This document shows positions 20,720 through 58,194 of a stretch of 64,000 nucleotides of DNA, in pieces. The translations under genes were made by a program, and so were the position numbers. This DNA is from a virus. The DNA is taken from positions 1 to 64,000 of the IMG/VR virus record IMGVR_UViG_3300034103_000446; one strand, given 5' to 3'. Below the pieces are notes generated by a model. That model was not told where the DNA came from. It saw nothing but the letters and a program-made list of their open reading frames with translations, and ran no database searches. Numbering within the stretch: the first letter of the stretch is position 1; each line of letters starts with the position of its first letter.

Positions 20720-21751
20720 TCAAATTTCATAGTCCCTACATGATTTGAGGTTTTCATAGTCATCTATCAAGTGTCGATCCAAAATATTCCCGGTATCTTC
20801 ATACCAATCGATGGCTTCTACTGCTATTTTTGGATACAATGATTTATCATAGGCCAATGCCCTTGCATGTTTCTTATTGAATGCAACTTTGTTGGCTATT
20901 TGCATTCGCAATATATACAAATCCTGCTTGTTTACTTTTATAAGTTTTTTGAAGTTTTCTAACAACATCTCATAACGTTTTTCTTCATCGGGTTCGTCAT
21001 CAAACGAATAGTCAAATAGTTCCTCGTACAGTTCAAACCCTAAATTTTTTAAGAATTTATGATAGTGCATCTGACTTGCTACCAGAAAGGGCTTACCTAG
21101 TAACAAAGGAATAGCAGTCTTTTCAGTTAGAATAATTGTATTCCCGGAACTCTCACTTATCAATTGTGCAAATGATTCATAGTACTGATCTACTATTCTA
21201 TATTGATTTTTATCCTCTGCAAACTCAGATTCTAGTATCAATGGTCTACCGTCAAAATATCTATAGGTGTACATTACAGGGGTACCATGCATTGACACTG
21301 CTCCATGTTCTAACAGATTGTTTTTAGCTAACAAATCTATCAATAAACACCTATGAGCATGTGGCCGGTTGTTCATCGATATGTAATGGTATTTGTAGTC
21401 TACATGTTCATATGGGTCTATTGATAATTTTTTCCCTTCATTGCTATTGAATAGAGCTCCTAATGTTTTACCTATCCAATATGTACTCCACCAGGAAACC
21501 TCAGTGTTTTCAACTCGTGTAGGGTAATGCAACTCAGCAGAACCTGATATGACATATAATGGTTGATTCCTACTTTTACAAAAAGAAAGTAGGTTGTTAA
21601 ATAATTCAGGTTGTGCATGCCATTCCCATTCATTCTGGCAAAATAAAATTACCTTGTCATAGTATCCAGAAACAACTTTGTTATAAAAATTAGCAAAGTT
21701 TAGGCCGTCCCATTGATTGTGTCCTATATAGTTAGATACATTACCACTCAT
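20720..21751 (-). CDS. GT10/exostosin-like putative glycosyltransferase
   Basis: LISES...LTEKT..PLLLGKPFLV...LGFELYEELFDYSFD motif; tandem paralog of the next gene. Confidence 0.6.
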   Translation of the reverse strand: MSGNVSNYIGHNQWDGLNFANFYNKVVSGYYDKVILFCQNEWEWHAQPELFNNLLSFCKSRNQPLYVISGSAELHYPTRVENTEVSWWSTYWIGKTLGALFNSNEGKKLSIDPYEHVDYKYHYISMNNRPHAHRCLLIDLLAKNNLLEHGAVSMHGTPVMYTYRYFDGRPLILESEFAEDKNQYRIVDQYYESFAQLISESSGNTIILTEKTAIPLLLGKPFLVASQMHYHKFLKNLGFELYEELFDYSFDDEPDEEKRYEMLLENFKKLIKVNKQDLYILRMQIANKVAFNKKHARALAYDKSLYPKIAVEAIDWYEDTGNILDRHLIDDYENLKSCRDYEI

Positions 21752-22799
21752 AGAATTGCAACATTTCTTCTTCATTATGTAATGAGCAAAGAAGGTGATC
21801 TACTTCTTCGCCTGTCTTAGTATAGTGAGCTAATATTTCTTTTACAAGGTCAGGTTTAAGGTTTCGATCATAAACTATTTCTCTTACCCTATTTTTATTG
21901 TGTAGTAGTTTATCAGAAATCTTATGTGTTATAAATGGTAACTCAGACAACGGAATCTCACATAGTCGTTTGTAATTGTCAACTAGCATTTCATATCTGA
22001 TATCTTCATCCGTAACATCATCAAACGAATAGTTAAAGATTTCATCATATAATACAAAACCTAAATCAACTAACATCTTATGATATCCCTGTCTTGATGC
22101 AACTAAAAAAGGCTTTCCTGCACATAAAGGCATGATTGTTTTTTCACTTATAAAATAGGATCTATCTGTAGTTTCACTAACTAACTGACAAAATGCTTTT
22201 TTATGTACATCGGTGACTGCAAACATTTGCGAGTGTGAATTTACTGTGAACTTTTCATGGTCGACCTCTAGAGGTGTAAAGTTAAAGTGTTTCCAGTTAT
22301 ATGTTCTCCAAGCTTCTTGTGCATAGCCAGAATACACTTCACTATCATGTATAGAAACTTTGCCGTGCTTCAATATATTATGTTTTGCCAATTGATCTAT
22401 AACCCTACAACGATGAGACTTTGGTCTGTGATTAAAATTAAAATAATGATGTGTGTACTCAGCAGGACCAAGAGGATTGATAAAGATACCAGTGCTGTTG
22501 CTTCGTATGGCATTAGTGTATGTTCTGCTAAACCAAGCTGTAGCCCAATATGTCACTACTATATTGTCAATCTGAACTGGGAAATCTTTTTCAGCAGCAC
22601 CAACGATAACATGTATGGGCCTACCTATGCTCTTGCAATGTTCTTGCAACAACTTCCAATGTATTGGTTCGTGGTTGTACCATTCCCATTCATTTTGACA
22701 GAATATTATTATCTTATCCCATTCCTCATTGAGCACACGATGATAAAATTCTATGAATTTATTATCCCCGGACCATTGATTGTGCGTGATATATTTCAT
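21741..22799 (-). CDS. GT10/exostosin-like putative glycosyltransferase
   Basis: LVSET...ISEKTIMP...KPFLV...LGF motif; shares FCQNEWEW with its neighbour. Confidence 0.6.
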   Translation of the reverse strand: MKYITHNQWSGDNKFIEFYHRVLNEEWDKIIIFCQNEWEWYNHEPIHWKLLQEHCKSIGRPIHVIVGAAEKDFPVQIDNIVVTYWATAWFSRTYTNAIRSNSTGIFINPLGPAEYTHHYFNFNHRPKSHRCRVIDQLAKHNILKHGKVSIHDSEVYSGYAQEAWRTYNWKHFNFTPLEVDHEKFTVNSHSQMFAVTDVHKKAFCQLVSETTDRSYFISEKTIMPLCAGKPFLVASRQGYHKMLVDLGFVLYDEIFNYSFDDVTDEDIRYEMLVDNYKRLCEIPLSELPFITHKISDKLLHNKNRVREIVYDRNLKPDLVKEILAHYTKTGEEVDHLLCSLHNEEEMLQFYEW

Positions 22800-25700
22800 T
22801 TGTTAAATCTTTCTCGGAGCCATGCCCACTCATAACTTAATTTTAGTTTGTCTGTCTTGCCATCTACTTCATTGTAATAGTCAATACCGTCTTTGGCTCC
22901 GTCAAGTGAACTCTGTGCAAACTCGCCGGTTGCCTTAGTCAGCCACACTTCTAAGCGGCTGTTGCTAATTTCAGAATCTTCTTTCTTCAATTTGATTACT
23001 TCACGGAATGCAGTACGCCATGTCGACCATTCATCAATATTGTATGTTGCTATACCAGACAATAATTCAATAGTCTCATGCGGACTATCAAGTGTAAAGT
23101 CTAGTCCATATCCTAAGTTATCTAATGTCATTTGCTTGTTGTACGCAATCATGCCCTGATGACCATATATCAAACCATTCACAGGATTCTTAGCTAAGAA
23201 CATATAGTGCTTTGGTATCTGCAATCTATCTGGTTGCCAGTTGAAGTCAAATTTAGTGTTGACTTTCAGTTTAGCAAACACAGTAAACATCCAAGGGGTG
23301 TTGCTTGCTTCTGCTGCCGCATGATATGCTTCAACACGACCATTAACTCCATCTACACGAACAATTCTGTTAGGTAGGCCCTTTGTAGCTTTCAATAGAT
23401 GTTCATAGTTCTCATCCGCACATGCCTCACCGTTACTCAAGAATACGATATCTAATGGGTTACTCTTGGCTAATCGTGATGCAGTCTTGATGTATGGATA
23501 GTCGTACAACTGTGTCTCAACATATTGCTTTGCTTCTTTAGGAACAACAATGCGTGTGCCACCGGTACTAGTAATCAATATGTTCTTTGACTCAATATCC
23601 CACAAGTTCATTGGTTCTTCTTCTACTACTACAATGTCTTTGTTGTCGCTTGTTACAAAAGTTGCATAGGGGAAATCAAAGTCCTGCATTACCGTAGCAA
23701 CATGGCTATCAAAATCAGAAACAATAACAGGAGCTGCCAATCGTTTGGTACGTTGATGCTGATTAAAATTAATCTTGTCATAATCTTTCAATGACTCCAT
23801 GTCCTTTATCAACTCACGTAACTTGTTCACATTGACCAAGAATGTGTCACCAAACTTTTGCTTGTCACTTGGGAATACATGCAACTGCTCTCTAGCAAAT
23901 GGATCACATATGTAAGTGAAGTCAAAACTCTCATAATCACATACTGTGCTTGCTATCCAAATGTAATGTTCTTTCTTCTCAGGAAGTTTAGATATTATAT
24001 TCTTAAAGGTAGTTAGGTAATCAGTATCATAAGGTACAACATTTGCTAAAGGTAAGTTAGGTGTGTTACCGTGATCAATATAGTACACATCGTACAATAC
24101 GTTAGTGGCTTTAGCAGTTCTATCCTTAATAAAGTTAAGGTTGCTCAAATGCTCAATAATCTTGATGTATTTTGTATCAGCAGAAAATGTGTCACGATTA
24201 ACTATAAAGGTTGTACCCCAATGACTCCACTGAGTACCAAACACATGAACCATCTTCATCTGCCAGGGGTTAGGATAGTAGTTGAAATCAAAGTCAGTGT
24301 AATCTAATTCGCTATTCAATATCCAGCACAATTCTGTGGTACTACGATTGATACAACGATTGATAGTATCAACCCAGCTGTTTAGATAACGAGTCTTTTG
24401 AATGTTACCAAATTTAATCTTCAATTCTTCATATCTGTGTGCTGATTCTGGGTTGCCTCTATCAACAAAGAACATGTCTGGTTTGATAAACAACCTAGAC
24501 AAGTAGCCTTCATTCAATGACGCATCTTCTACAAACTTTAAATCTTTCTTACCATCTAGATAAGACCTAGCGTTTACAAAATATGTATGAGTAGTTACTG
24601 AGTCCGGTGATCCAAACACGTGTACGTAGTCAGATTCCCATGCAACATTGATAACTTCTGGTCTCCAATCAAAGTCGAAACCAGTGTAGTCGATGTTCTT
24701 ATTCAATGCCCAGAATACTTCAGAAGAATGTTGATTAATCAAATCTTCTAAAGTAGTTTCGATGTAGTATTCAGGAACAACAACCTGATCAGGGATAGAG
24801 GTTGCTAATTCATTTTCATATGGTTTAGTTATACGTAACTTATATACAATCTCTCCAGTATGACCCGGTGTAACATACTTAGGACCATCCTTATCATCTA
24901 CCATAGTACCAAACTGATACACATACGGTGGTGCTAATTCATCAGGATGCCAGCTAAAGTCAAAATCATTTACAGCAACACCATTGGGGATGACCCAGTT
25001 AGTCTTGTCCTCTTTGCGTTTTGCTCGGATATCATCAACATACTTTATATCAGTTGCTCCGAAAACTTCGTATCTAGGTCCATTTGTCTTTTGATGCTGT
25101 GTGCCAAACTGATAGATGTATGGAGGATCGTTTGGATTAGGGATCCAACTAAAATCAAAACTTTCGGCTTGTATGTTCTTAGGTACTACCCAATTTTTTC
25201 TATTAGGGCTTAGTATTGCAACAATATCTGTCACATATTTTGTTTGCACTGCTCCGGGAACCTTGTATTCAATAGTAGGCATAATTTCAGCAGAATATTG
25301 TTTGTTGCCGAAACGATATATGTATGGTTTCTCAGTGTCATCTGGGTGCCAGCTGTAGTCAAAATCTTTGATATCGTGTTCTATCAATGTAGTGAAATTT
25401 TTCTTATCTTTCAAATGGATAGATTTGATATCACTGCAATACTTAACTGGGGTGTCGCTAGTAGCGCCTTCAGGCACATAGCGAGGGCCACCTGTCTTTT
25501 GCCATTGAGTACCAAACTGATAAATGAATAGTTCATCAGTGTCGTCTGGGTGCCATGAGAAATCAAACACCGATGAGTTTATACTAGGTGGAACAAACCA
25601 ATGCTTCTTAGAAGCTACTGACTTTGCAGTAGATTCTTCTACATATTTTACTTCAGTTGCACCTGATACAGTGTACTTTGGTCCACCTGTCTTTTGATGT

Positions 25701-28700
25701 TGTGTACCAAACTGATAGATATAGGGAGGGTCATTTGGATTTGGTTTCCAACTAAAGTCAAACTGACTTACATCTATTTTGCTCGGTACATCCCATCCAG
25801 TAAGGTCGGTAGCAAGTGTTGCCTTCACATCATTGACATACTTTATCTTTTCAGCATAAGGACTTGAACGATATTCAATCGTAGGCATCACTTCTGCAGG
25901 ATACTGTGTGTTACCAAACACATAGATGAATTCACCGTCAGTGTCATCAGGATGCCATGACCAATCAAACGATGCAACTGATAAGTTGTTTAATACATTA
26001 AATTTACTCTTAGTAGGTAATTTCTTTGATGTGATAACACGAGTATCAATGTACTTGACTGGTGCGCTTCTTTTTGCGCCCGGAGTAACATACCGAGGTC
26101 CGCCTGTCTTCTGCCACTGTGTACCGAACTGATAGATATACGGATCGTCTTCTGCATAAGGGTGCCATGAGAAATCGAAATCAGATTCATCAATGTCAAC
26201 CGGAACTTCCCAGTTAGTTTTGTTAGGCAACGCTTTTGCACTAGGTGAATCCATGTACTTAGTTGCAATTGCGCCATCCATCTTGTATACAGGTCCACCA
26301 CTCAATGCCCATTGAGTAGCAAAATGATAGTTGTACGGAGGGCTAGTACTGTCAGGATGCCAGCTAAAGTCAAAATCAGTTACATCAATGTTCTCAGGTA
26401 ATGTCCACTTGTCATGATCCGGCAATGCTTTTACTTTTTGTGTGGTGACATACTTGACTTCGGTGGCATCGGGAACGATATATCGAGGTCCACCTGTCTT
26501 CTGCCATTGTGTACTGAATTCGTATATGAACGCAGGATCTTTTGGATTGGGTTTCCAACTAAAGTCAAAGCCAGTTGTATCTACACTAGCAGGCACTTCC
26601 CAGTTAGTCATATCAACATCAAGTACAGCAATAACATCAGACACATATTTGATTTGTTTTGCACCCGGAACTTTGTATTCTACAGTAGGCATTATCTCAG
26701 CAGGATGCTGAGTGTTGCCGAACACATAGATATATGGCTCATCGGTTTCATCCGGATGCCACGACCAATCAAACTCTTTAATCTTATAGTTATTGAGTAT
26801 TGCAAAGTTTTTCTTATTCGGTAATCTTTTAGATTTTAAAATACGAGTATCTATATACTTTACAGGGCTAGAAGGAATAACGCCCGGTGTTACATACTTT
26901 GGTCCGCCTGTCTTCTGCCACTGTGTACCGAACTGATAGATGTAGGGCTGATCTTCTACATACGGATGCCATGAGAAATCAAAGTCACTAACATCAACAT
27001 GTTCAGGTACTTCCCAATTGTCTTTGTTCTCCAACGCAATAGCACTTGGTTCTTCCAAGTACTTAGTTTCAACAGCGCCGGGTACAGTGTATATCGGTCC
27101 ACCTGTCAATGCCCATTGAGTAGCAAAGTGATATATGTATGCAGGACTTGTATCATCTGGATGCCAACTAAAATCAAATCCAGTCACATCAATATGAGTA
27201 GGAATAGTCCAGTTGTTCTGATTAGGTAACGCTTTTACTTTTTGAGTTGACACATACTTAACTTCATCAGCACCGGGTACTACGTATCTAGGTCCACCTG
27301 TTTTCTGCCATTGTGTACCGAACTGATAAATGAACGCAGGATCTTTTGGATTAGGTTTCCAGCTAAAGTCAAAATCTGTAGTGTCAATATCATCAGGTAC
27401 TTCCCAGTTAGTCATATCAACATCAAGTACCGCCATGATATTGTTGACATACTTGATTTGCTTTGCGCCAGGAACCACGTATTCTATGGTAGGCATTATT
27501 TCAGCAGGATGTTGATTATTACCAAATACATATATGTAGGGCTCATCAGTTTCATCTGGATGCCAGGTGAAGTCAAACTCTTTAATCTTGTAGTTGTTTA
27601 ATATTGCAAAGTTTTTCTTACTTGGCTTTCTAATAGCCTTTAAAATACGAGTGTCGATATACTTGACAGGACTAGAAGGAATCACTCCAGGTGTTATATA
27701 CTTCGGTCCACCTGTCTTTTGATGTTGTGTGCCGAACTGGTACACATATGGTTGATCTTCTACATATGGATGCCAGCTAAAGTCAAAACTATCTGCATCA
27801 ATCTCATTCGGTACTTTCCAGTTGTCTTTGTTCTCTAACGCAATAGCACTTGGTTCTTCTAAGTACTTTGTCTCGGATGCGCCTGGTACTGTGTACACCG
27901 GTCCGCCAGTCAATGCCCACTGAGTGGCAAAGTGATAGATATAGGGAGGACTTGTATCGTCAGGGTGCCAACTAAAATCAAAGTCAGTAGTATCTACGTA
28001 GCTAGGTACTGTCCAATTATCCTTAGTAGGTAGTGCGGTTACTTGATGTGTTGACACATACTTAACTTCATCGGCGTCAGGTACTACATAACGAGGGCCG
28101 CCTGTCTTTTGATGCTGTGTGCCAAATTGATAAATGAATGCCGGGTCTTTGGGATTAGGTCTCCAACTGAAATCAAAGGTAGATGTATCTGTATTGTCAG
28201 GCACTTCCCAGTTAGTCATATCAACGTCAAGTACAGCAATAACATCAGACACATACTTTATCTGTGTTGCACCAGGTACTACGTACTCAATAGTAGGCAT
28301 AATCTCGGCTGGATGCTGGTTATTACCGAATACATATATGTACGGCTCATCTGTGTCATCTGGATGCCATGACCAATCAAAATCTTTGATTTTGTAATTG
28401 TTTAATATTGCAAAATTCTTCTTGCTAGGTTTTCTGATAGATCGTATGATACGAGTATCAATATACTTAACTGGACTAGAAGGCAGTGATCCAGGGGTTA
28501 AATATCTAGGACCACCTGTCTTTTGATGTTGAGTACCAAACTGATAGATGTAGGGCTGATCTTCTACATATGGATGCCATGAGAAATCAAATGCATCACT
28601 GTCTATATAAGATGGAATTTCCCAATTGTCTTTATTTGGTAATGCGATAGCACTAGGCTCATCTAAGTATTTTGTTTCAACAGCATCAGGACAAGTATAT

Positions 28701-32428: not shown

Positions 32429-32433
32429 TCAAA

Positions 32434-32532: not shown

Positions 32533-32562
32533 AGGAGCTCCTTAAATTCCTATGTATTTATA
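32530..32562 (-). promoter_or_regulatory. T4 late promoter TATAAATA plus a start-codon-sequestering hairpin
   Basis: TATAAATA at 32562-32555 followed by CATAGGA-atttaaggagc-TCCTATG. Confidence 0.6.
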
Positions 32563-32564
32563 AC

Positions 32565-41375: not shown

Positions 41376-41399
41376 TTAATACCTCGTGTATATACCTAA

Positions 41400-49088: not shown

Positions 49089-49089
49089 A

Positions 49090-50430: not shown

Positions 50431-51409
50431 TTTTTTCTAACCAATCGCCATCAAATTTAGGAATAATAATGTCTGTTCCACAATGACAGTGTTCTTTCTC
50501 ACATATGATTTGTTTAGGGCCGACACGATTAATATCATCTAGTATATGACCTACATACCCACCCATGCCGCAACTTGCAAGACTCATCTCGCCGACTGGA
50601 TTGATAAAGATGCAATCACCCACGTTGCAACTCCATCCATTGAAGAAGTTGTTTCCTGCTACAATAACTTCGTTGCTGTTACACACTTCGGTAGAATTGT
50701 CTTCATACTTATTGTAACTTACTGTCAATGTAGTACGCTTCATAGGCTTACGCTTAGTCTGCTGAATCTCTGTAGTATGCTCACGTAACCATGCTTCTTT
50801 AGCAGGATCTTTGTAGTGCCATGGGCCGGTGTTGACTGACATTTCATCAAACAACGGAGTCCACTCTAAGAAGTAATTAGGCATCACTGTCTTCATATGA
50901 TTGCCGAAATCAACTACTTCCCAGAATCTTTCTTCATGCATCAACATCTTAGTAGAAAGATAGTTTACCTTATCACACAAGAAGATAGAGTTTTCCTCAT
51001 AACGCTCTTTGTCAGCAAACTCTATGTGAAAGCTTGCAACCACATCATCAAAAAGATGATAGTGTTTCTTCCACCATTCTAATGGACGACTCAAGTTAGT
51101 GTTAACTGCAAGAGTAGCACGAGGTAGTTTTTCGTAAATCCATTCACAGATAGGAATAAAGTTCTTCCAGGCTGTAGGTTCTCCGCCGCTGAAGAAGAAC
51201 TTAAAGTTCTTATACCCTGCACTCTTATAGCGATTGATAATCGTTTCTAAGTTATTTAGGTATATGTCTAAGTTACCTTCGTTGCGGTCAGTGCCTCCCC
51301 AGTTGCCAGGATTACAATAACTGCACTTGTAGTTGCAGAAATTGTTTACTTGCCATGTTATTGCGAGATAGGGCTGGGGAGCCTCAATCGCTATTAGCTT
51401 CTTGCCCAA
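50417..51409 (-). CDS. Radical SAM protein with C-terminal Cys cluster
   Basis: CNYKCSYC and SGGEPT; C-terminal C...C...C...CHC. Confidence 0.88.
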   Translation of the reverse strand: MGKKLIAIEAPQPYLAITWQVNNFCNYKCSYCNPGNWGGTDRNEGNLDIYLNNLETIINRYKSAGYKNFKFFFSGGEPTAWKNFIPICEWIYEKLPRATLAVNTNLSRPLEWWKKHYHLFDDVVASFHIEFADKERYEENSIFLCDKVNYLSTKMLMHEERFWEVVDFGNHMKTVMPNYFLEWTPLFDEMSVNTGPWHYKDPAKEAWLREHTTEIQQTKRKPMKRTTLTVSYNKYEDNSTEVCNSNEVIVAGNNFFNGWSCNVGDCIFINPVGEMSLASCGMGGYVGHILDDINRVGPKQIICEKEHCHCGTDIIIPKFDGDWLEKNAVK

Positions 51410-52665
51410 TCAAACACCTCTTTTAGTTCTGGAATAACTTCTTCCAATTTCTCGCCCCTAAAGTCATCTAGTTCTTCATTGAACTTGATAAACTCTTGGA
51501 TGCCACCTTTGTTCTCATCACCAACTGTCAAGTTGTAGATAATCATCTTGAATCCGTTATAGATATCAATGTTATCTTTATAACGGTTCTGATAGACACG
51601 ATACAATTCAGCGAGTCTTCGCTTTACACTAGCGGGTAGGATCATAATGTTAGCATACCAGGGGTTGGTAGCTAAATTAAAGCGTGGGCTAGATTTAGTA
51701 TCAATAAACCCTTCATTGATCATGTAGTCAAAGAAGTCAGGAAAAGTAAACACATTCCAAATACTGATGGTTGGAGTAATCTGAAATTCAGCATGCGGCA
51801 CTTGCTCTTTTACTAACTTGATATTACTAACAATACGATCCCAATCTGTACCCTTTCTGATACATTCAGCAACATCACCGTGTGCGTCAAGTGATGCCCA
51901 AATTTTCAGTTTAGGAAATTTCTTCCAATACGCAATCAAGTCAACATCTTTCTTATACTTCAAGCTACTAAAGTTTGTTGTATAAGTCAGTTCCACTTGA
52001 TCCGTTAATCCGTTCTCAATCCAGTAGTCTAAGCATTCATAATGCTCAGGGGTAATAATGATTTCACCACCTGCAAAGTAAACTTCTGTAACGTCTTTGA
52101 GATATGGCTTGAGTTTGGCCATGAATCCCATTTCTTCTGCTGAATTGATAACAATCTTAGTGGTCTTAAAGTATTTCTCATAGTTGTCCATACCAACACG
52201 GTCAACAAACTCTTGTGCCCATTGACTAGAGCAACCAGGGCCGCAACTACGGCACTTCATGTTACAGATGCTACTAAAGCGCAAGTCCATGTACTTCATT
52301 TCAAAGTCAATTAACTTGCCGTCTTCCATGGTGTTCTCTGCGATGTAATTCACATATTCTAGGCCCTTGCGTTTGTTGTGAGACTGTCGCATTGTCCATG
52401 TGCCCATCAGTTCTAGATCATAACAACGCTTACATGCTTCAACTGGCTCATCGTTCATCATAGCAGTGCGTAATTTTTTGTAATCTACACTGTTCATCAT
52501 ATTAATGATTGATTCTCCGTCTTTTAAGTCTGCAACAGGCATGTTGCTATCTGCAATACAGCAAGGCATTACTCGACCGTCAGGCCAGCTATGAAAGTGA
52601 ACCCAGGGTAGTACACAGAAATGCTTTCCGTGCTTAACTAAGTTTTCTACTGTTACGTTATCCAT
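51394..52665 (-). CDS. Radical SAM protein with N-terminal twitch-like domain
   Basis: FCVLPW..PCC..CKRC, CNMKCRSC, FAGGE. Confidence 0.88.
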   Translation of the reverse strand: MDNVTVENLVKHGKHFCVLPWVHFHSWPDGRVMPCCIADSNMPVADLKDGESIINMMNSVDYKKLRTAMMNDEPVEACKRCYDLELMGTWTMRQSHNKRKGLEYVNYIAENTMEDGKLIDFEMKYMDLRFSSICNMKCRSCGPGCSSQWAQEFVDRVGMDNYEKYFKTTKIVINSAEEMGFMAKLKPYLKDVTEVYFAGGEIIITPEHYECLDYWIENGLTDQVELTYTTNFSSLKYKKDVDLIAYWKKFPKLKIWASLDAHGDVAECIRKGTDWDRIVSNIKLVKEQVPHAEFQITPTISIWNVFTFPDFFDYMINEGFIDTKSSPRFNLATNPWYANIMILPASVKRRLAELYRVYQNRYKDNIDIYNGFKMIIYNLTVGDENKGGIQEFIKFNEELDDFRGEKLEEVIPELKEVFDWARS

Positions 52666-52670
52666 CTTGA

Positions 52671-53900
52671 TTACTCCAATAATTCAGATAATTTATTTAA
52701 CTCGGGGAATGTTTTCCAGAAACTTTCCTCACGTATTCTGTCGAGTGATTTGGTATGTCCTAAGAACTGAGTCTTAACTTCACTCCAACTGTCACTCTCG
52801 TTTGCAAAATTTACAGCATCACGCACCAATCGTGATAAGCTAGTGCCGTCGTTGTCGTTGGCATCTGCCCATTTTAATGCTTTTTCTTCTGCTAATGGCT
52901 TCAATGATTTTGGTAAGCTTTTTGCGCTGTAATACAACGGATGGACTGCTAGATACAAACTATGATACCAATCTTCTCGTCTAATGATATTTTTATCCTT
53001 AAGATACTGATAGAACTCGCCGATTGTCAAGTAGTTAAAGATTGAGAACACCGTATTCATTTGAAAACTAACATAATCTAAGTCTCTAAACGTCAACAAG
53101 TTGCTTTCAACTTTGCCCCAATCAGTGCCCGAACGTAATAATTCAGCACGTTCACCATAATGATCTATTGAACAACTCAATTCAACCTTTTTAAAGTGTT
53201 TCCAAAGATCAAGTACATCATGGTTCTTATACTTGATATTACTAGCATTTGTATTGTAGCGTAATGTTACATCAGTGCGACCCTTACGAATCATTTCTTC
53301 TAGTATAACATAGTGTTCTTCTGTAATCAAGGGCTCTCCACCCGCAAAGTACGCTAGGTCTATGTGTTCTACTTGATCCAATACTTCTTCTAGAACTTTA
53401 CCCTTACCATCATCCACGTGAATAACAATTGGGTGATCCTTGTCGTAATTCTTGTTCATCTCTAGTCCCCACTGACTAGAAAACTCTGAACCGCATGTAC
53501 GACATTTGAAGTTACAAATGTTACTGAATCTGATATCAAAGTAACGCATCTTAAACTCGTCAACCGTTCCATCTTTTTGGGTAGTGGGCACAACTTCGTC
53601 ATAATACTTGCCAAAGTGTTCTTTACTATAGTTACGGAAACTGTGCGGACCTGCTTCTTCATGTTGATAACAGAACTTGCATATTTCATTCTTACGCTCG
53701 TTTAGCATATCCAATCTAAGTTCTTTCATCTTAGGACTATTGAATGCTTGTTCGAGGGTAATCTCTTTTGTGTTACCAAAAGGTTTGGTGTAATCGTTTG
53801 AACAGCAAGGATAGATGTCACCTTTAGGAGTCACATTTAAGTGAAGCCACGGGAACATACAAAATGTCTTGCTGTCGTTTAATAATTGGTCTTTGTTCAT
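52671..53900 (-). CDS. Radical SAM protein with N-terminal twitch-like domain
   Basis: FCMFPW..PCC..CKFC, CNFKCRTC, FAGGEP. Confidence 0.88.
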   Translation of the reverse strand: MNKDQLLNDSKTFCMFPWLHLNVTPKGDIYPCCSNDYTKPFGNTKEITLEQAFNSPKMKELRLDMLNERKNEICKFCYQHEEAGPHSFRNYSKEHFGKYYDEVVPTTQKDGTVDEFKMRYFDIRFSNICNFKCRTCGSEFSSQWGLEMNKNYDKDHPIVIHVDDGKGKVLEEVLDQVEHIDLAYFAGGEPLITEEHYVILEEMIRKGRTDVTLRYNTNASNIKYKNHDVLDLWKHFKKVELSCSIDHYGERAELLRSGTDWGKVESNLLTFRDLDYVSFQMNTVFSIFNYLTIGEFYQYLKDKNIIRREDWYHSLYLAVHPLYYSAKSLPKSLKPLAEEKALKWADANDNDGTSLSRLVRDAVNFANESDSWSEVKTQFLGHTKSLDRIREESFWKTFPELNKLSELLE

Positions 53901-55306
53901 TTAAATGGGTTCAGTTGGTTTGTTTCTTGGCACAGTCTGTAGAAGCCCAGCATCTCAGGGAACACTGATAGCATGTCTGCTTCTCGGCGCTCATCTAATT
54001 CATTGAACCAATTATAGAAGTCTCTGCGACCTTCGATTAGTTTTTCTTCAGGGTAAACAGTCTCAGCCATGTAATCTACTACACGCTTGAACTTTTCATA
54101 TTCTATTGAGCTAAATGCATCACTGCGTTTGTCATCAGTGTTAGCCTTCATATACTCCAATGCCTCATACATATAGGGCATGAATTCTTCTTTGGGAAGG
54201 ATGTTCATATCATATTGAATAGGATCACGTAGATATGGGGTATCAAAACGCACACGATGTTGTGGGTTGACCGGGTCATCATACCATCCGTATATCTTGC
54301 GCCACTCAATAAACTTCTCCAAGAAGCTTTTGAATGTAGTCACTGAGAAGATGTTGAACGTAATCATAAACGTGATCGGACTATCAGTTCCTTTAAGATA
54401 TGTGTGGAAGTTCTGTTCCCATAGCTCTAAATCTAAGCCTGTACGAATGTATTCAGCACGAGGGCCCCATGTATCTAGGCTAGTAAATAGTTTGAAACTT
54501 TTGATCTTGCCCTCGTCAGTAAGCTTTTTAACTTTCTCTGCAAGACGCTCAATAAGAATAGGCTTAGTACCTAAGTTACTGTTAATGTTCAACTCTAACC
54601 AGGGCATTGGATCTTCATCAATTTTTTCTAGCAATGTCCATGTTGAACGATGTAGTGTAGGTTCTCCACCGGTAACACGTAAGATGTTCAGTGTCTTGCG
54701 CATCTCAGGCCACCATTCCCAGAATGCATCAACATATGGGTTATCATCTTCACGTTGATACAATCGCATCCAATCTATATCACAACGATGGTTCTTAACT
54801 GATGTTACAGGGCCGTTTTGTTCAATCTCTTTGTAGAAGCTTGTGCTATACTTAGGGTGGCAGTAGCCGCACTTGAAGTTACATTCGTTACCGAAGTTGA
54901 TTTCGATGTACTCGGGGTTGATGTTTTGATTCCACGGACCCTTTGCTGTTTGTTCATATCGTTCATCAGTAAAGATACTTGCGTTACGAATGTGACGGTC
55001 ACTGATGTAATCCGGACCCATTGCCTCGATGTTCCAGCAATACTGACAACCAGTAGGCTTACCACCGTCAAGCATTAGTTTACGTTCTTCTTTCTTCTGC
55101 TGTGTGTTATGAAGTGCAGAAGGGTTATCATATAATTCTTCTAAAGGAATTTTATGAGGTTGAGGATGGTAACAACTATGAGTCTCTCCTGATTGCAAAT
55201 ACATTGTTACATGATGCCATTTAGCAAGGCAAAATGTAGGACCAGTCTCGTTTTCGATCTTAATCCTAATGTCTTTGATTCTTTTTTGTTCGTGACTCTC
55301 GCTCAT
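53897..55306 (-). CDS. Radical SAM protein with N-terminal twitch-like domain
   Basis: FCLAKW..SCYH..CQYC, CNFKCGYC, TGGEPT. Confidence 0.88.
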   Translation of the reverse strand: MSESHEQKRIKDIRIKIENETGPTFCLAKWHHVTMYLQSGETHSCYHPQPHKIPLEELYDNPSALHNTQQKKEERKLMLDGGKPTGCQYCWNIEAMGPDYISDRHIRNASIFTDERYEQTAKGPWNQNINPEYIEINFGNECNFKCGYCHPKYSTSFYKEIEQNGPVTSVKNHRCDIDWMRLYQREDDNPYVDAFWEWWPEMRKTLNILRVTGGEPTLHRSTWTLLEKIDEDPMPWLELNINSNLGTKPILIERLAEKVKKLTDEGKIKSFKLFTSLDTWGPRAEYIRTGLDLELWEQNFHTYLKGTDSPITFMITFNIFSVTTFKSFLEKFIEWRKIYGWYDDPVNPQHRVRFDTPYLRDPIQYDMNILPKEEFMPYMYEALEYMKANTDDKRSDAFSSIEYEKFKRVVDYMAETVYPEEKLIEGRRDFYNWFNELDERREADMLSVFPEMLGFYRLCQETNQLNPFK

Positions 55307-56259
55307 TACCATCCTTCAATTTTTCGAATTACTTCCATCTCGGTGACTAGAGGGCCTTGATTGTGATAATCAGATTGATAGTGACGTTTGAAGAACTTAC
55401 TTTGTTCAGGGCTTAATGTACACATAGGCAATCCTAATTTAGCATACAATGCTTCGCCAATCAACTCTGATTGTTTCATCGGATCTTTTAATTCATGTTC
55501 TTCCCATAACACTGGATAGTTATCAAACCATTGCACATTATGACAATCCCATTCAGTTAGCATCGTCATGTATGTTCCAAGACGAGCGCCATAGATAGCC
55601 CAGATACCGTTCTCAACATCTGCACCGACGTTCTGCCAAATAGTTAAGTTATTTAGATTGCGACTTGCAACCCGTTCTTTGAACTCAGTAGCATCCGGCT
55701 TCTCACCCTTGTCAAGAACCATCTTGACCCCTTCACGAAACCCTGCACGCCATGCTTGAAATGGTGTATGATTGGGATAGGTTGTGCTGTAGCAGTCATA
55801 CATCGCCCAGTACAAGTTGTCTTTACTATCTAAGCAGAAGTCAGCAATGCGTGAACTATCACCGTCTTTCTGTGCTTCATGCGTTTTCATGTTAGCAACA
55901 TAAGTCTTTGTCCAAGAACTCATACCACCATTACCATAACGCAACCCATTAATAGCATTGACTGCTTTCCAGCGAAATTGTGCTTTATAGTATGATGGAT
56001 CTCGGCCCGTGAAGTCAAGTTGCATATTGAAGAACGATTCGTCGGGCATGTTGTCCCCGTCAATCAATATGAATCGCTCAGTGTCGCTAGCGGCGCCGGC
56101 AGCTTTGTGGGCAGCATCAGAGCCTTTGACCCCGTCTACACGCTTGGCCCAAGGGACCATGTTCTTAATCTTTAGCCAGAATTCTTCTTTTTGTGGCTCG
56201 TCATAGCTTAGGTAGATGCAGTCCAAATCTGCTACATCAACAATATCATTTAAGCTCAT
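55306..56259 (-). CDS. GT-A-fold putative glycosyltransferase
   Basis: DCIYLSYDE, AAHKAA, FILIDGD (DxD), YGNGG and AWRAGFREGVKM. Confidence 0.65.
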   Translation of the reverse strand: MSLNDIVDVADLDCIYLSYDEPQKEEFWLKIKNMVPWAKRVDGVKGSDAAHKAAGAASDTERFILIDGDNMPDESFFNMQLDFTGRDPSYYKAQFRWKAVNAINGLRYGNGGMSSWTKTYVANMKTHEAQKDGDSSRIADFCLDSKDNLYWAMYDCYSTTYPNHTPFQAWRAGFREGVKMVLDKGEKPDATEFKERVASRNLNNLTIWQNVGADVENGIWAIYGARLGTYMTMLTEWDCHNVQWFDNYPVLWEEHELKDPMKQSELIGEALYAKLGLPMCTLSPEQSKFFKRHYQSDYHNQGPLVTEMEVIRKIEGW

Positions 56260-56596
56260 AAGTGTTTAGTTTCCATCTAATAATGTTATCACCTTCTGAC
56301 GAAACTAAACTAATATCTTCTGCTTCACATATCTGACCTTGAGTGATATGAGGCATGAGTTTAGAAACAATTGCATGGTTACTGGCAGTAGAAATTTTAC
56401 CGTTAATGATTCGAATATCAGGGCGTGCCTGTGCAAAAGTAATAGCGTCAACTATCAGATAAGTACCTTCGGGTTTCTCGCAAGTATAGCAAGTGACTCG
56501 ACCAGTATCTTCATCATAATATAGACGAAACTCCGGAACTTCAATCTTGGGTGCTTCCCAAAGAATTAGTACTTCATCTTGTGTAGTTTCAGTCAT
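56246..56596 (-). CDS. Hypothetical phage protein
   Basis: 116 aa, overlapping both neighbouring GT genes. Confidence 0.6.
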   Translation of the reverse strand: MTETTQDEVLILWEAPKIEVPEFRLYYDEDTGRVTCYTCEKPEGTYLIVDAITFAQARPDIRIINGKISTASNHAIVSKLMPHITQGQICEAEDISLVSSEGDNIIRWKLNTYELK

Positions 56597-57392
56597 AGGC
56601 TTTTAGTATTTTATTAGAAAATGTCTTCACATGATAGTGAAAAGGGTAAAGCTGGGGGCAAGAATTAATTCTCAATGTGTGAGGTAATATTTCATACACT
56701 AATGCATCAGTCCAATCTTCAGTGGGAAGATTGTTAATCAACCGTTTCATATGAACCATGCTCATTTCATCAAAGTTAGGCAATGTGCAATTTTCTACTC
56801 CCATAACATGTGTAGCATATGCGTATACCCAATCAGTAGTTGCCTCTTCATATGGGCTGCATTTGAGTGTGGACCTAAACTCAGACCAATTCTCAAACAC
56901 ATACCGAACTGTTTCAAAGAACTTCTTAGCAGTCTCTGACTTCTTAAAATATGTAATTGCGTTGTACGTATCGGGTAACTTGTTATCATCAATGAATCTA
57001 CGATAGACCCGTGATGGACTTATCTCTTGTTTGAAATCTCTAATCTTAGTTGAGATTACCAAATCACGATGCTTCAACGCATCCCACCAATAGTCGATTG
57101 ATCTAGGAAGATATATGTCTGCTTCTAGTTTTATAGTGTACTCATATGGGCTAGCGTCATATACTTGCCAATCATTGTTCAACTTCCAAAAGCTTTTAGG
57201 TGATTGATCTCCGTAAGGCAAGGGTATGATTTTATCATAGAGTGCAGTGTTTTTAATCTTATTGTTCGTGATGATTGACACTTTAGCATCAGGCATTGTG
57301 CGTTTTATGCTCTTTGCTAATGCTTCTGCGCATTTCTGATAAGTGTCTAATGTGCCACCATCTTGTGCAACGATAACGAAACCTTTATCCAT
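56589..57392 (-). CDS. GT-A (GT8-like) putative glycosyltransferase
   Basis: ALAKSIK, YDASPYEYTIKLEAD (ExD), TDWVYA and HMK. Confidence 0.65.
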   Translation of the reverse strand: MDKGFVIVAQDGGTLDTYQKCAEALAKSIKRTMPDAKVSIITNNKIKNTALYDKIIPLPYGDQSPKSFWKLNNDWQVYDASPYEYTIKLEADIYLPRSIDYWWDALKHRDLVISTKIRDFKQEISPSRVYRRFIDDNKLPDTYNAITYFKKSETAKKFFETVRYVFENWSEFRSTLKCSPYEEATTDWVYAYATHVMGVENCTLPNFDEMSMVHMKRLINNLPTEDWTDALVYEILPHTLRINSCPQLYPFHYHVKTFSNKILKAYD

Positions 57393-58194
57393 TTTTTATT
57401 AACTCCAAAAAGTTTTCTTTGTTCATCACATGGAAGTCAGTGTCTTTGATATTGATATACTCTTTGCGAATTTTACCACGCTGCCAGTTGTCAAACATAA
57501 CAGTGTATTCAGTATTGAATTCTGTTTCTTTATCGGCATACACTGATGTGTTCTTACCAACATGAAGTAGGTTCCATGGGATAATATCTGACTCATGGTT
57601 CACATGTCCGTTGGCTATACGTAATGCTAATGTCAATGCGTAGTCATTTCTATATACACCTGCGATAAAGCTATGAATGTTTGCATAGTGTTCATAGTTC
57701 TTTTGAACCATTTCTAAACATTCAAATATCTGCTTTGCTCGGTTTGTTTTTCTAAATGTGATTACAGTGGCCCACAATGTATTGAAGCTATAAGCACTTA
57801 ATACTTCTTGCGGGGCTTTTGGATGCATCAAGAATGATGTAGTATCGTGACAGCAGAAGTCTTCACAAATATCAAAGGTACTTAATAACCTATTGCTATT
57901 AACCACATAGTCAGTGTCTAATAGCAATGTTTCATCATACGGACTTAAGTCATATGCTTGATATCTACCTTTGTTAATCCACACTACATAGTCTCGAATG
58001 TTGTTCTTGTCTGGTTCTACAACAATCGTATTGTCAAACATGTAGGTGGAATTCTTTGGTATGCTGGATTCATCAGTAACTATTGTTACTGGAAGTCCCA
58101 AAAAATGATTTATTCTCTTTGCAGTGTACTCCGCCATAGCGTAGTAATTGTATTTGGGTGAGTTAAACGCAAAGAGTAGTGCGCCTCTATTCAT
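57385..58194 (-). CDS. GT-A (GT8-like) putative glycosyltransferase
   Basis: YDLSPYDETLLLDTDY (DxD), RNDYALT and HVMNK; paralog of the previous gene. Confidence 0.7.
   Translation of the reverse strand: MNRGALLFAFNSPKYNYYAMAEYTAKRINHFLGLPVTIVTDESSIPKNSTYMFDNTIVVEPDKNNIRDYVVWINKGRYQAYDLSPYDETLLLDTDYVVNSNRLLSTFDICEDFCCHDTTSFLMHPKAPQEVLSAYSFNTLWATVITFRKTNRAKQIFECLEMVQKNYEHYANIHSFIAGVYRNDYALTLALRIANGHVNHESDIIPWNLLHVGKNTSVYADKETEFNTEYTVMFDNWQRGKIRKEYINIKDTDFHVMNKENFLELIKNG

What the first reader, a model, noticed from the sequence alone, without database searches (positions are those of the whole stretch)
20720..58194. ~37-kb phage-encoded glycan synthesis and tailoring supercluster attached to the tail-fibre operon (candidate virion glycosylation system)
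Seen: immediately downstream of T/S/N-rich tail genes, about 24 co-oriented, mostly tightly packed genes. They encode 3 GT-A glycosyltransferases, 8 GT10-like domains, a UDP-sugar dehydrogenase, a GDP-mannose 3,5-epimerase, a PLP aminotransferase, an amidinotransferase, a carbamoyltransferase, 2 SGNH proteins, a methyltransferase domain and 6 radical SAMs. Late-type ATAAATA cores, but no sigma70 consensus that I noticed, precede the units. Known: these families build and decorate oligosaccharides. Inference: a late-expressed pathway that puts an elaborately modified glycan on virion proteins or remodels the host surface. This degree of tailoring goes well beyond the phage glycosylation systems I know of. 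No dNMP hydroxymethylase is visible, which argues against T4-style DNA glucosylation.
Basis: partly seen in the sequence, partly recalled or inferred. Interest (0 to 1): 0.9.

Follow-up and report, generated by a model that had tools for sequence, protein, structure and literature searches.

The report
Fibre-linked glycan-tailoring island, lake jumbo phage
An uncultured giant lake phage carries, right behind its tail-fibre genes, 25 tightly packed genes for soluble sugar-transferring and sugar-editing enzymes that most likely build a heavily decorated sugar chain, probably for the virus particle, although neither product nor target has been measured.

Summary
Window 20720-58496 (minus strand) has 25 co-oriented genes that are 99.8% coding. 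Nearly all the enzyme calls were reproduced:
- six intact radical SAM enzymes: three of the untested N-terminal-twitch family NF033640, two B12-dependent, one short
- eight paralogous domains whose model is a GT-B glycosyltransferase fold
- three GT-A proteins, plus a fourth GT-A-like domain ending the 2717-aa repeat protein
- a sugar dehydrogenase + GT-B + N-methyltransferase fusion
- an SDR epimerase/reductase and a short DegT aminotransferase
- a StrB1-type amidinotransferase (E 5.6e-81)
- a NodU/TobZ-type carbamoyltransferase

Formal GT10 membership, the two SGNH calls and the "GDP-mannose 3,5-epimerase" label were not confirmed.

No protein has a membrane helix. The fibre -> GT8-like x2 -> GT-A -> radical SAM core is colinear in 59 of 67 related viral contigs. 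It is also present in the cultured Ralstonia phage RsoM2USA, inside its virion operon.

The only ThyA homologue is a canonical thymidylate synthase, which argues against DNA glycosylation.

The "glycan synthesis and tailoring" reading is well supported. "Virion glycosylation" is the best guess (about 0.45) but is untested.

This scan has already noted similar fibre-linked islands on many other phage genomes. Pelagimyophage "host recognition clusters" are a published precedent.

The parts
61542..64000 (-). C-terminal part of a 6491-aa giant virion protein (ORF 61542-81017 of the contig), directly after the gp6-like baseplate wedge
   Evidence: ORF; wedge, hub and gp55; the homologous RsoM2USA ORF361 was found in virions by mass spectrometry
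60755..61375 (-). conserved phage protein (phrog_11259); ATAAATA lies in its upstream gap (61532-61538)
59505..60722 (-). fibre/spike-type protein with a C-terminal Peptidase_G2/intramolecular-chaperone domain; ATAAATA 25 bp upstream
58545..59495 (-). T/S/N/G/A-rich (62%) fibre-like protein
   Evidence: conserved upstream of the enzyme core in relatives
58191..58496 (-). small conserved protein (101 aa), function unknown
57385..58194 (-). GT-A (GT8-like) glycosyltransferase candidate with a DTD motif; true start at 58194
   Evidence: paralogue of the next gene, hhalign E 1.7e-48; start inferred from stops in relatives
56589..57392 (-). GT-A (GT8/glycogenin-like) glycosyltransferase candidate
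   Evidence: the profile hits glycogenin chains at E 0.002, and the alignment spans the DxD region
56246..56596 (-). small conserved protein (116 aa), function unknown
55306..56259 (-). GT-A fold (GT2-like) glycosyltransferase
   Evidence: AF2 pLDDT 82; Foldseek BcsA 2.7e-4, PBCV-1 capsid glycosyltransferase 3.6e-4
53897..55312 (-). N-terminal-twitch radical SAM (NF033640)
   Evidence: 312.8 bits against cut-off 170; CxxxCxxC
52671..53900 (-). N-terminal-twitch radical SAM (NF033640)
   Evidence: 372.1 bits; SPASM domain at residues 14-78
51394..52665 (-). N-terminal-twitch radical SAM (NF033640)
   Evidence: 356.3 bits
50417..51409 (-). short radical SAM with a C-terminal Cys cluster
49090..50430 (-). 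unknown N-terminal domain fused to a GT-B paralogue
48108..49088 (-). extended SDR NDP-sugar epimerase/reductase (closest to GDP-L-fucose synthase)
47240..48112 (-). possible SGNH-type esterase/acyltransferase (motifs GCSWT, NLGxRGIGN, AHPT)
   Evidence: motif level only
45319..47247 (-). B12-binding radical SAM, KedN5-like C-methyltransferase type
43274..45322 (-). tandem of two GT-B paralogue domains
42508..43296 (-). possible SGNH-type protein (GCSFT ... GN ... DxHP)
   Evidence: motif level only
41435..42511 (-). GT-B paralogue
38214..41375 (-). three-part fusion: NDP-sugar dehydrogenase (aa 1-380) + GT-B paralogue (491-783) + MTS/HemK-type N-methyltransferase with an NPPH motif (870-1025); ATAAATA 25 bp upstream
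35893..38151 (-). B12-binding radical SAM (class B methyltransferase type)
35306..35896 (-). short (196 aa) DegT-family PLP aminotransferase; the short form is conserved in relatives
34330..35316 (-). StrB1-type amidinotransferase
   Evidence: profile against PDB 1BWD E 5.6e-81; the GGCFHC cysteine is aligned
32565..34340 (-). weak cupin / Asp-Arg-hydroxylase-like N-terminus + GT-B paralogue
30950..32428 (-). NodU/CmcH/TobZ-family carbamoyltransferase; ATAAATA in the upstream 136-bp gap
22796..30949 (-). 2717-aa protein: about 30 repeats of 65-70 aa (FDFSWHPD...PYIYxFG...GGPxY) in 4-unit super-repeats, ending in a GT-A-like domain homologous to 55306-56259
21741..22799 (-). GT-B paralogue
20720..21775 (-). 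GT-B paralogue (the one that was modelled)
   Evidence: AF2 pLDDT 93.4; VIA T4 beta-glucosyltransferase Z 11.0, FUT9 Z 9.7
3075..6509 (-). satellite sugar set outside the finding: 4,6-dehydratase-like SDR, full-length DegT/PseC-like aminotransferase, and a fourth NF033640 radical SAM

Best explanation
The island is a cytoplasmic pathway, built entirely of soluble proteins, for making and editing an unusual oligosaccharide. It is transcribed together with, or just after, the tail-fibre genes.

Inferred steps:
1. Nucleotide sugars are modified. They are oxidised to uronic acid (dehydrogenase domain), epimerised or reduced (SDR) and transaminated (DegT). The amine is amidinated to a guanidino group (StrB1-like enzyme). 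Hydroxyls are carbamoylated (NodU/TobZ-like enzyme). Unactivated carbons are methylated (two B12 radical SAMs), and an amine or amide is N-methylated (NPPH methyltransferase). Further radical editing is done by the three N-twitch radical SAMs and the short one.
2. Twelve glycosyltransferase domains (two GT8-like, two GT2-like GT-A, eight GT-B) assemble the chain. Several are fused to the enzyme that presumably makes their donor.
3. The chain is most likely attached in the cytoplasm to virion proteins encoded just upstream (fibres, the giant baseplate-linked protein), or to the 2717-aa repeat protein. This would resemble how chloroviruses, mimiviruses and some mycobacteriophages glycosylate their particles.

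Shown here: gene content, folds, family memberships, synteny and solubility. Inferred: each reaction, the order of steps and the acceptor.
For: Enzyme identities.

GT-B fold of the eight-fold paralogue family. All eight domains keep the invariant R...E...EK...PF columns.

No hydrophobic helix in any of the 28 proteins.

Tight packing, with ATAAATA motifs before the fibre genes and none between 58.5 and 41.4 kb.

The core fibre -> g6 -> g7 -> g9 -> radical SAMs is colinear in 59 of 67 relatives, and 63 of 67 have the fibre genes upstream.

The same order sits inside the virion operon of cultured phage RsoM2USA. Its giant-protein homologue ORF361 was detected in virions (PMC8504454).

N-twitch radical SAMs pair with sugar enzymes elsewhere. 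In the window they sit beside a dehydratase-like SDR and a DegT. In bacteria they sit beside Wzt polysaccharide exporters, DegT, carbamoyltransferases and B12 radical SAMs. This favours sugar over peptide substrates.

g9's structural neighbours include the PBCV-1 capsid glycosyltransferase.
Against: No glycan, glycoprotein or transcript has been observed.

Adjacency to fibre genes is also what the host-surface hypothesis of the pelagimyophage paper rests on (PMC7029224).

Many bacterial glycosyltransferases that work on undecaprenyl-linked acceptors are also soluble, so the lack of membrane helices does not exclude a lipid-linked acceptor.

The bacterial relatives of the radical SAMs sit in surface-polysaccharide loci.

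The best single structural match of the GT-B model is the DNA-modifying T4 beta-glucosyltransferase (Z 11.0, against 9.7 for FUT9).

In Vibrio phages K566/K567 the radical SAM paralogues are not visibly next to fibre genes.
Confidence: 0.45

Rival explanations
1. Host-envelope remodelling. The phage enzymes build or edit a lipid-linked (undecaprenyl-PP or LPS-core) glycan at the inner face of the membrane. The host's own flippase or Wzm/Wzt exporter displays it. This changes the cell surface during infection, for example to block superinfection or to stop progeny re-adsorbing to lysing cells.
For: This is the interpretation given for fibre-adjacent GT8 / LPS-type / radical SAM genes in pelagimyophages (PMC7029224). 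Bacterial homologues of the N-twitch radical SAMs lie beside Wzt ABC-exporter ATPases (7 loci), DegT, carbamoyltransferase and B12 radical SAM genes. Peripheral O-antigen glycosyltransferases such as WaaG and WbnH are among the structural neighbours of the GT-B model.
Against: The island has no initiating phosphoglycosyltransferase, flippase, polymerase, ligase or exporter, and no membrane helix at all. It is embedded in and probably co-transcribed with late virion genes, which is late for a surface change to be useful. The phage would depend on a compatible host exporter for a very unusual glycan.
Confidence: 0.22
2. Free small-molecule or pseudo-oligosaccharide product (aminoglycoside-like). 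The StrB1-like amidinotransferase, DegT, carbamoyltransferase, B12 radical SAMs and twitch radical SAMs make a guanidinylated, carbamoylated, C-methylated sugar compound. It would act on the host or on competitors.
For: The tailoring set mirrors aminoglycoside pathways. The closest solved relative of 34330-35316 is the streptomycin enzyme StrB1 (E 5.6e-81). The carbamoyltransferase is of the NodU/TobZ type. Class B radical SAMs are present. The authors of the cyanophage S-SCSM2R paper read the same trio as "antibiotic synthesis genes" (PMC12801897).
Against: Twelve glycosyltransferase domains are far more than any aminoglycoside needs. No cyclitol synthase, exporter or self-resistance gene was seen. 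The conserved core is the GT-A + radical SAM part next to the fibres, while the aminoglycoside-like set belongs to the variable part.
Confidence: 0.1
3. DNA hypermodification. The GT-B paralogues glycosylate a modified base in phage DNA, as T4 alpha- and beta-glucosyltransferases and the RB69/DLP3 arabinosyltransferases do. The tailoring enzymes diversify the sugar.
For: The best structural match of the GT-B model is T4 beta-glucosyltransferase (Z 11.0), and T4 alpha-glucosyltransferase also scores Z 9.1. Phage DNA can carry di- and tri-saccharides (PMC13326640; bioRxiv 10.1101/2023.12.21.572611).
Against: The only ThyA-family gene in the window, and the single one in the complete 364-kb relative, is a canonical thymidylate synthase. 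It passes the NCBIfam equivalog cut-offs and keeps L143, D169 and N177, so it is neither a 5hmC nor a 5hoC synthase by the published diagnostic residues. No TGT/DpdA was found in the complete relative. Twelve transferase domains and bulky guanidino/carbamoyl tailoring are hard to fit on a base. The island sits in the virion module, not the nucleotide-metabolism module.
Confidence: 0.06
4. Direct protein maturation. The twitch radical SAMs act on the fibre or repeat proteins themselves (cross-links, epimerisation, C-methylation, as in RiPP maturases), and glycosylation is only an accessory step.
For: SPASM/twitch radical SAMs are mostly peptide or protein maturases. Weak NCBIfam side-hits go to sactipeptide/ranthipeptide maturases. 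The enzymes sit next to structural proteins.
Against: No precursor-peptide-like gene or RRE domain was noticed. The same radical SAM family repeatedly pairs with nucleotide-sugar enzymes, both in the window (3075-6509) and in bacteria.
Confidence: 0.08

Closest known systems
Host recognition cluster (HRC) of aquatic T4-like myophages (pelagimyophages, cyanomyophages; Zaragoza-Solas et al. 2020, PMC7029224)
   Same: A hypervariable block joined to the tail-fibre genes of a T4-like phage. It contains GT8-type glycosyltransferases, UDP-glucose 6-dehydrogenase and radical SAM cassettes. Its function has never been tested.
   Different: Here the phage is a roughly 350-kb Rak2/XacN1-like jumbo phage from lakes. 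The island is larger (12 GT domains, 6-7 radical SAMs), has a conserved colinear core, an eight-fold expanded unannotated GT-B family, an aminoglycoside-type tailoring set and a 2717-aa repeat protein.
Virus-encoded virion glycosylation: chlorovirus PBCV-1 capsid glycosyltransferases (A64R, PDB 2P6W), mimivirus fibril glycosylation genes, mycobacteriophage capsid/tail-tube O-glycosylation (Freeman et al. 2023, PMC10527164, cited from reference lists)
   Same: Soluble virus-encoded glycosyltransferases that act in the cytoplasm. Multi-domain fusions of transferase and methyltransferase occur. Genes for making rare sugars are carried by the virus. g9 is a structural neighbour of A64R.
   Different: No glycan has been shown here. 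Radical SAM, amidino and carbamoyl tailoring are not part of those systems (from my own knowledge). The mycobacteriophage systems have only one to a few transferases.
Aminoglycoside biosynthetic tailoring enzymes (StrB1, TobZ, GenK/GenD1, BtrN)
   Same: The same enzyme families are co-located: amidinotransferase (E 5.6e-81 to StrB1), NodU/TobZ carbamoyltransferase, class B radical SAMs, twitch radical SAMs and a DegT aminotransferase.
   Different: No cyclitol synthase, exporter or resistance gene. There are far more glycosyltransferases. The setting is a phage virion operon.
T4 beta- and alpha-glucosyltransferases (DNA-modifying GT-B enzymes)
   Same: Best structural match of the 351-aa GT-B model (Z 11.0 and 9.1). 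Same size class and also phage-encoded.
   Different: Sequence identity is 12% or less. The lineage lacks a hydroxymethylase or 5hoC-synthase type ThyA homologue. The conserved N..HR / SE[ST] / TEK motifs look like the fucosyltransferase (GT10) pattern instead.
Ralstonia phage RsoM2USA ORF348-361 (MG752970; all annotated hypothetical or structural)
   Same: Same gene order: wedge, giant virion protein, SDR, fibre-like protein, two GT8-like genes, GT-A (40% identity), N-twitch radical SAM (37%), second GT-A-like gene.
   Different: A minimal version with one radical SAM and no GT-B paralogues in the 29-kb stretch around the core that was searched or anywhere in the phage collection. It is a soil phage of a cultivable host.

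Membership tests
GT-B fold glycosyltransferases | Two Rossmann-like domains matching solved GT-B enzymes over most of the chain | tested here: met
   AF2 pLDDT 93.4, pTM 0.91. All top Foldseek and VIA hits are GT-B enzymes, Z 8-11 over 230-270 residues.
CAZy GT10 (alpha-1,3/4-fucosyltransferases, Pfam PF00852) | Match to the family HMM | tested here: not met
   No PF00852 hit for any paralogue, even at E up to 10. A six-frame search of the contig found none at E 1 or below, but the control genomes did not ring either.
CAZy GT10 (alpha-1,3/4-fucosyltransferases, Pfam PF00852) | Fucosyltransferase motif (ENS...Y-x-TEK with an upstream N...R) and structural similarity to FUT enzymes | tested here: inconclusive
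   Conserved N135, R142, E208, E218-K219 ("SE[ST]...TEKT...KPF") resemble the motif as I recall it. FUT9 Z 9.7, FUT11 9.2, FUT13 9.0, H. pylori FucT 8.3. These are not above T4 beta-glucosyltransferase at Z 11.0.
GT8 (glycogenin/LgtC-type GT-A) | Sequence similarity to GT8 members including the DxD region | tested here: inconclusive
   The g7 profile hits 19 glycogenin sequences at E 0.002-0.014 over residues 3-103, with EAD aligned to DAD. No Pfam hit. g6 is linked only through g7.
GT-A fold (GT2-like) | Predicted structure matches solved GT-A enzymes | tested here: met
   g9 model pLDDT 81.6. Foldseek: BcsA 2.7e-4, PBCV-1 A64R 3.6e-4, hyaluronan synthase 5.1e-4. DGD motif at residues 67-69.
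NCBIfam NF033640 N_Twi_rSAM | Score above the curated cut-off (170 bits), N-terminal twitch/SPASM Cys cluster, CxxxCxxC | tested here: met
   312.8, 372.1, 356.3 and 323.9 bits. SPASM domain at the N-terminus. CNFKCxxC motifs.
Class B (cobalamin-dependent) radical SAM methyltransferases | B12-binding domain followed by a radical SAM core with CxxxCxxC | tested here: met
   PF02310 and PF04055 both above cut-off in 45319-47247 and 35893-38151. Motifs confirmed. No specific equivalog reached its cut-off.
Amidinotransferases (StrB1 / AGAT type) | Full-length homology and the catalytic cysteine in the C-terminal GGxFHC motif | tested here: met
   Profile against 1BWD E 5.6e-81 over residues 3-321, AGAT 1.6e-43. 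GGCFHC is aligned to GGGFHC.
NodU/CmcH carbamoyltransferases | Both Carbam_trans_N and Carbam_trans_C domains | tested here: met
   125.9 and 162.8 bits, above cut-offs. The N-terminal domain is only partly covered (profile positions 121-345).
SGNH/GDSL hydrolases | Family HMM or structural match, with blocks I, II, III and V | tested here: inconclusive
   No Pfam/NCBIfam hit. The only PDB link is a GDSL-like protein at E 0.73. Motifs GCS[WF]T, NLGxxGxGN and DxHP are conserved. The two families are linked at hhalign probability 79%.
T4-type or RB69-type DNA glycosylation system | A ThyA-family dCMP hydroxymethylase or 5hodCMP synthase supplying the acceptor base | tested here: not met
   The window ThyA passes the thymidylate synthase equivalog cut-offs and keeps L143, D169 and N177 (against the criteria). 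Each of four relatives, including a complete genome, has a single ThyA-family gene; in the translations examined each keeps the PCH and PFN motifs.
Host recognition cluster of aquatic T4-like phages | Variable block joined to tail-fibre genes that carries glycosyltransferases and radical SAM cassettes | tested here: met
   Fibre genes are directly upstream. The core is conserved and the remainder varies among 80 relatives. Description taken from PMC7029224.
Experimentally shown virion glycosylation systems | Glycan demonstrated on virion proteins and dependent on the phage transferases | not testable with these tools
   Needs glycoproteomics and genetics.

The most novel reading that the evidence does not exclude
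A large clade of jumbo phages (lake, marine, soil) decorates its fibres, or a dedicated 65-aa-repeat scaffold protein, in the cytoplasm with an oligosaccharide. The sugars would be guanidinylated, carbamoylated, and C- and N-methylated. The chemistry would include a new kind of sugar-editing reaction by the untested N-terminal-twitch radical SAM family. This would be a prokaryotic-virus counterpart of giant-virus glycan machineries and a new source of glyco-enzymes.
Probability: 0.35. Interest if true: 0.85.

Novelty: new variant of a known kind. Interest (0 to 1): 0.62.

Why it matters
If the product sits on the particle, phage virions can carry self-made, heavily tailored glycans. That would bear on host recognition, on stability and grazing in lakes, on evasion of receptor-mimicking defences, and on immune recognition of therapeutic phages.

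Whatever the target, the island holds several enzyme families with no tested member:
- the N-twitch radical SAMs
- an eight-fold expanded GT-B family with no Pfam model
- a 65-aa repeat found in only 165 protein clusters out of 1.84 billion

The cultured phage RsoM2USA carries the minimal core, so the question can be tested directly.

Tried and rejected
- Megablast of 40 kb of the island against 50,697 phage records gave no match.
- Profile of the GT-B paralogues against PDB sequences found nothing. Only the fold search worked.
- Profiles of g6 and g9 against PDB sequences found nothing useful.
- The C-terminal 668 aa of the repeat protein against PDB gave only a chance-level hit.
hhalign probability was 0.1%. 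PDB and Atlas searches of the repeats gave nothing.
- TATAAATA (the full T4 late box) occurs only twice, fewer than chance. The shorter ATAAATA is the informative motif.
- Tet_JBP (PF12851) matched neither the phages nor any control genome, so that search is uninformative.
- The Vibrio phage K566 and first RsoM2USA radical SAM loci are annotated only as hypothetical proteins, so their context is uninformative.
- A literature search for jumbo phage + radical SAM + glycosyltransferase returned 0 papers. The twitch-domain search was not useful. The "moraphage" paper concerns another lineage.
- Complex prediction was not used: enzyme-substrate pairs are a poor use of it and no binding claim is made.

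Full report
**Context.** The window is the first 64 kb of a 103,062-bp IMG/VR viral contig that CheckV rates 29% complete. Beyond the window lie a gp6-like baseplate wedge, a gp5-like hub, the gp55 late sigma factor and gp46/gp47. The wedge protein is about 33% identical to those of the Rak2, XacN1 and Atu_ph07 group jumbo myoviruses. Related IMG/VR records reach 333 and 364 kb, and the 364-kb one has terminal repeats. Near-identical DNA occurs in lake-water metagenomes from 16 studies. This is therefore an uncultured lake jumbo phage of about 350 kb with T4-like core genes.

**Checking the observation.** All genes from 81 kb down to 20.7 kb are on the minus strand. Between 58496 and 20720 there are 25 genes, and 99.8% of that stretch is coding. 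Of the 24 junctions, 20 overlap or are 5 bp or less apart. The only gaps are 59, 62 and 136 bp.

Upstream lie four virion-type genes:
- a 6491-aa ORF that directly follows the wedge gene
- a conserved phage protein
- a fibre/spike protein with a Peptidase_G2 intramolecular-chaperone domain
- a 316-aa protein that is 62% T/S/N/G/A

**Radical SAM enzymes.** All six are real and keep CxxxCxxC.
- Three (53897-55312, 52671-53900, 51394-52665) score 313-372 bits against NCBIfam NF033640, the "twitch domain-containing radical SAM protein" family (cut-off 170). Their SPASM/twitch cluster is at the N-terminus. No close solved relative exists.
- Two carry B12-binding domains. One resembles KedN5-type C-methyltransferases.
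- The sixth is short, with a C-terminal Cys cluster.

**The "eight GT10-like domains".** All-against-all BLASTP finds one paralogous domain eight times. It forms two stand-alone genes at 20720-22799, a tandem pair in 43274-45322, and the gene 41435-42511. It also forms the C-termini of 49090-50430 and 32565-34340 and the middle of 38214-41375. The family has no Pfam, PHROG or NCBIfam model. All of the more than 177 metagenomic homologues are unnamed.

An AlphaFold model built on 45 sequences is confident (pLDDT 93.4). Every structural neighbour is a GT-B glycosyltransferase:

| Structure | Z |
|---|---|
| T4 beta-glucosyltransferase | 11.0 |
| FUT9 | 9.7 |
| phage HY126 GT | 9.6 |
| FUT11 | 9.2 |
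| T4 alpha-glucosyltransferase | 9.1 |

All eight domains keep the invariant Arg, Glu and Glu-Lys columns. The pattern N..HR / SE[ST] / TEKT..KPF recalls the fucosyltransferase motif, but that comparison rests on my memory of the motif. The Pfam GT10 model does not match. My conclusion is that these are eight GT-B transferase domains, with GT10 kinship plausible but unproven.

**GT-A proteins.**
- A profile of 56589-57392 hits only glycogenin (GT8) chains, weakly (E 0.002). The alignment runs through the DxD position.
- 57385-58194 is its clear paralogue (hhalign E 1.7e-48). Relatives show that its start is at 58194.
- 55306-56259 folds as GT-A (pLDDT 82). Cellulose and hyaluronan synthases and the PBCV-1 capsid glycosyltransferase are its best matches.
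- The last 230 residues or so of the 2717-aa ORF belong to the same family as 55306-56259.

That makes four GT-A-type domains and twelve transferase domains in all.

**Tailoring enzymes.**
- 38214-41375 fuses an NDP-sugar dehydrogenase, a GT-B domain and an MTS/HemK-type methyltransferase with an NPPH motif.
- 48108-49088 is an extended SDR. Its best match is GDP-L-fucose synthase, below that model's cut-off, so "GDP-mannose 3,5-epimerase" is not established.
- 35306-35896 is a 196-aa DegT-family protein. The short form is conserved in relatives.
- 34330-35316 had no Pfam hit. Its profile matches the streptomycin enzyme StrB1 at E 5.6e-81, with the catalytic cysteine aligned.
- 30950-32428 is a NodU/TobZ-type carbamoyltransferase.
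- The two proposed SGNH proteins show only conserved motifs and a weak mutual link.

**The repeat protein.** The 2717-aa ORF holds about 30 copies of a 65-70-aa unit arranged in four-unit super-repeats. Relatives carry versions of 1237 to 2713 aa at the same end of the island. Only 165 of 1.84 billion protein clusters contain the repeat, with 1 to 25 copies each. I found no link to any fold or family. The suggested derivation from the GT-A domain is not supported. Its role is unexplained. A scaffold, an acceptor array or a polymer-binding array are all possible.

**Promoter-like motifs.** ATAAATA is depleted overall (15 copies against 28 expected), and 14 of the 15 are on the coding strand. 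Eleven of those 14 lie in the scarce intergenic DNA, typically 6-50 bp before a start codon. They precede the fibre genes (61538, 60753) and two units of the island (41406, 32561). There are none between 58.5 and 41.4 kb. The conserved core is therefore probably read through from the fibre promoters. Sigma70-like sites are not enriched. With gp55 encoded in the genome, late expression is a reasonable inference, but it has not been shown.

**Conservation.** 114 IMG/VR stretches encode a relative of 52671-53900. Of the 67 loci with enough upstream flank, 59 keep g6, g7, g9 and the four radical SAMs colinear, and 63 have the fibre genes upstream. Downstream of the core the content varies. It draws on the same kit of GT-B paralogues, SGNH-like genes, dehydrogenase fusions, DegT, amidinotransferase and B12 radical SAMs.

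The core also exists in a cultured phage, Ralstonia phage RsoM2USA. Its gene order is:
- ORF362: baseplate wedge
- ORF361: giant protein
- ORF358: SDR
- ORF355: fibre-like protein
- ORF353 and ORF352: the two GT8-like genes
- ORF350: GT-A, 40% identical to g9
- ORF349: N-twitch radical SAM, 37% identical
- ORF348: second GT-A-like gene

ORF361 and ORF356 were identified in purified virions (PMC8504454). A second RsoM2USA locus pairs a radical SAM with a carbamoyltransferase that is 44% identical to the window's.

**What the radical SAMs act on.** A fourth NF033640 member in the window (3075-4361) overlaps a PseC/DesI-like aminotransferase and sits next to a 4,6-dehydratase-like SDR. In bacteria, mostly Bdellovibrionota and Bacteroidota, the family's recurrent neighbours are Wzt polysaccharide-export ATPases, DegT, carbamoyltransferases and B12 radical SAMs. 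This favours sugar substrates over peptides.

**Which target?**
- None of the 28 proteins has a hydrophobic helix. There is no initiating transferase, flippase, polymerase or exporter. The chemistry is therefore cytoplasmic.
- DNA is unlikely. The ThyA homologue in the window passes the thymidylate synthase equivalog cut-offs and keeps L143, D169 and N177. Published diagnostics say these residues change in 5hmC and 5hoC synthases. Each of four relatives has only one ThyA-family gene, with the same PCH and PFN motifs in the translations I examined. No DpdA/TGT was found.
- A lipid-linked acceptor handled by host exporters remains possible. That is the published reading for pelagimyophages.
- A free aminoglycoside-like compound fits the variable tailoring set but not the twelve transferases.
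- The position inside the virion operon, the likely co-transcription with fibre genes, and the analogy to chlorovirus, mimivirus and mycobacteriophage systems make virion proteins the best single guess. I put this at about 0.45.

**Novelty.** The general phenomenon has been noted before: fibre-linked GT8, LPS-type and radical SAM genes in PMC7029224, and the DegT + radical SAM + amidinotransferase trio in PMC12801897. This scan already holds several hundred notes and several follow-ups on similar islands in other phage genomes. No product has been characterised anywhere.

This example adds four things:
- the eight-fold GT-B expansion with domain fusions
- a firm StrB1-type amidinotransferase assignment
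- the rare repeat protein
- the link to a cultured phage that makes the hypothesis testable

I rate it a new variant of a known kind, with interest 0.62.

Noticed in passing
window 3075-6509 (-): A second, separate sugar set: a 4,6-dehydratase-like SDR, a full-length PseC/DesI-like DegT aminotransferase and a fourth NF033640 radical SAM whose start overlaps the aminotransferase gene.
   Followed up: partly
window 22796-30949 (-): The 65-70-aa repeat (FDFSWHPD...PYIYxFG...GGPxY) occurs in only 165 protein clusters of 1.84 billion. Copy number ranges from 1 to 25, and relatives of this phage carry 1237- to 2713-aa versions. It has no fold or family assignment.
   Followed up: partly
window 20014-20340 (-): The gap after the island encodes a tmRNA-like sequence whose tag reading frame ends ...ANDEQFALAA*.
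   Followed up: no
window 14385-15266 (-): A phage-encoded Gram-negative porin (Pfam Porin_4, E 1.5e-18) with an ATAAATA motif upstream.
   Followed up: no
window 15404-19998 (-): An AT-rich cassette with 2OG-Fe(II) oxygenases (Pfam 2OG-FeII_Oxy_3 and _5) and a protease-like 526-aa protein, each preceded by ATAAATA.
   Followed up: no
window 6765-7682 (-): A canonical thymidylate synthase with a roughly 30-residue insertion relative to the Pfam model. It keeps L143, D169 and N177.
   Followed up: yes
L179 (RsoM2USA MG752970, 216.6-229 kb) and L178 (123.5-128.2 kb): A cultured Ralstonia jumbo phage carries the island's core in its virion operon, plus a second radical SAM + carbamoyltransferase pair. 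All of these genes are annotated as hypothetical.
   Followed up: partly
L094 (Vibrio phage K566 OZ196521, 161.5-179 kb): Five NF033640-like radical SAM paralogues are clustered in a 255-kb Vibrio phage, with no recognisable glycosyltransferase from this island nearby.
   Followed up: no
L008:12108-12869 (+) and L008:16543-17232 (+): GIY-YIG-type homing endonuclease genes are inserted between gp55 and gp47 and after gp46.
   Followed up: no
window, whole: ATAAATA is under-represented (15 against 28 expected) yet almost exclusively on the coding strand and in intergenic DNA. This is the pattern expected of a promoter element that is selected against elsewhere.
   Followed up: partly
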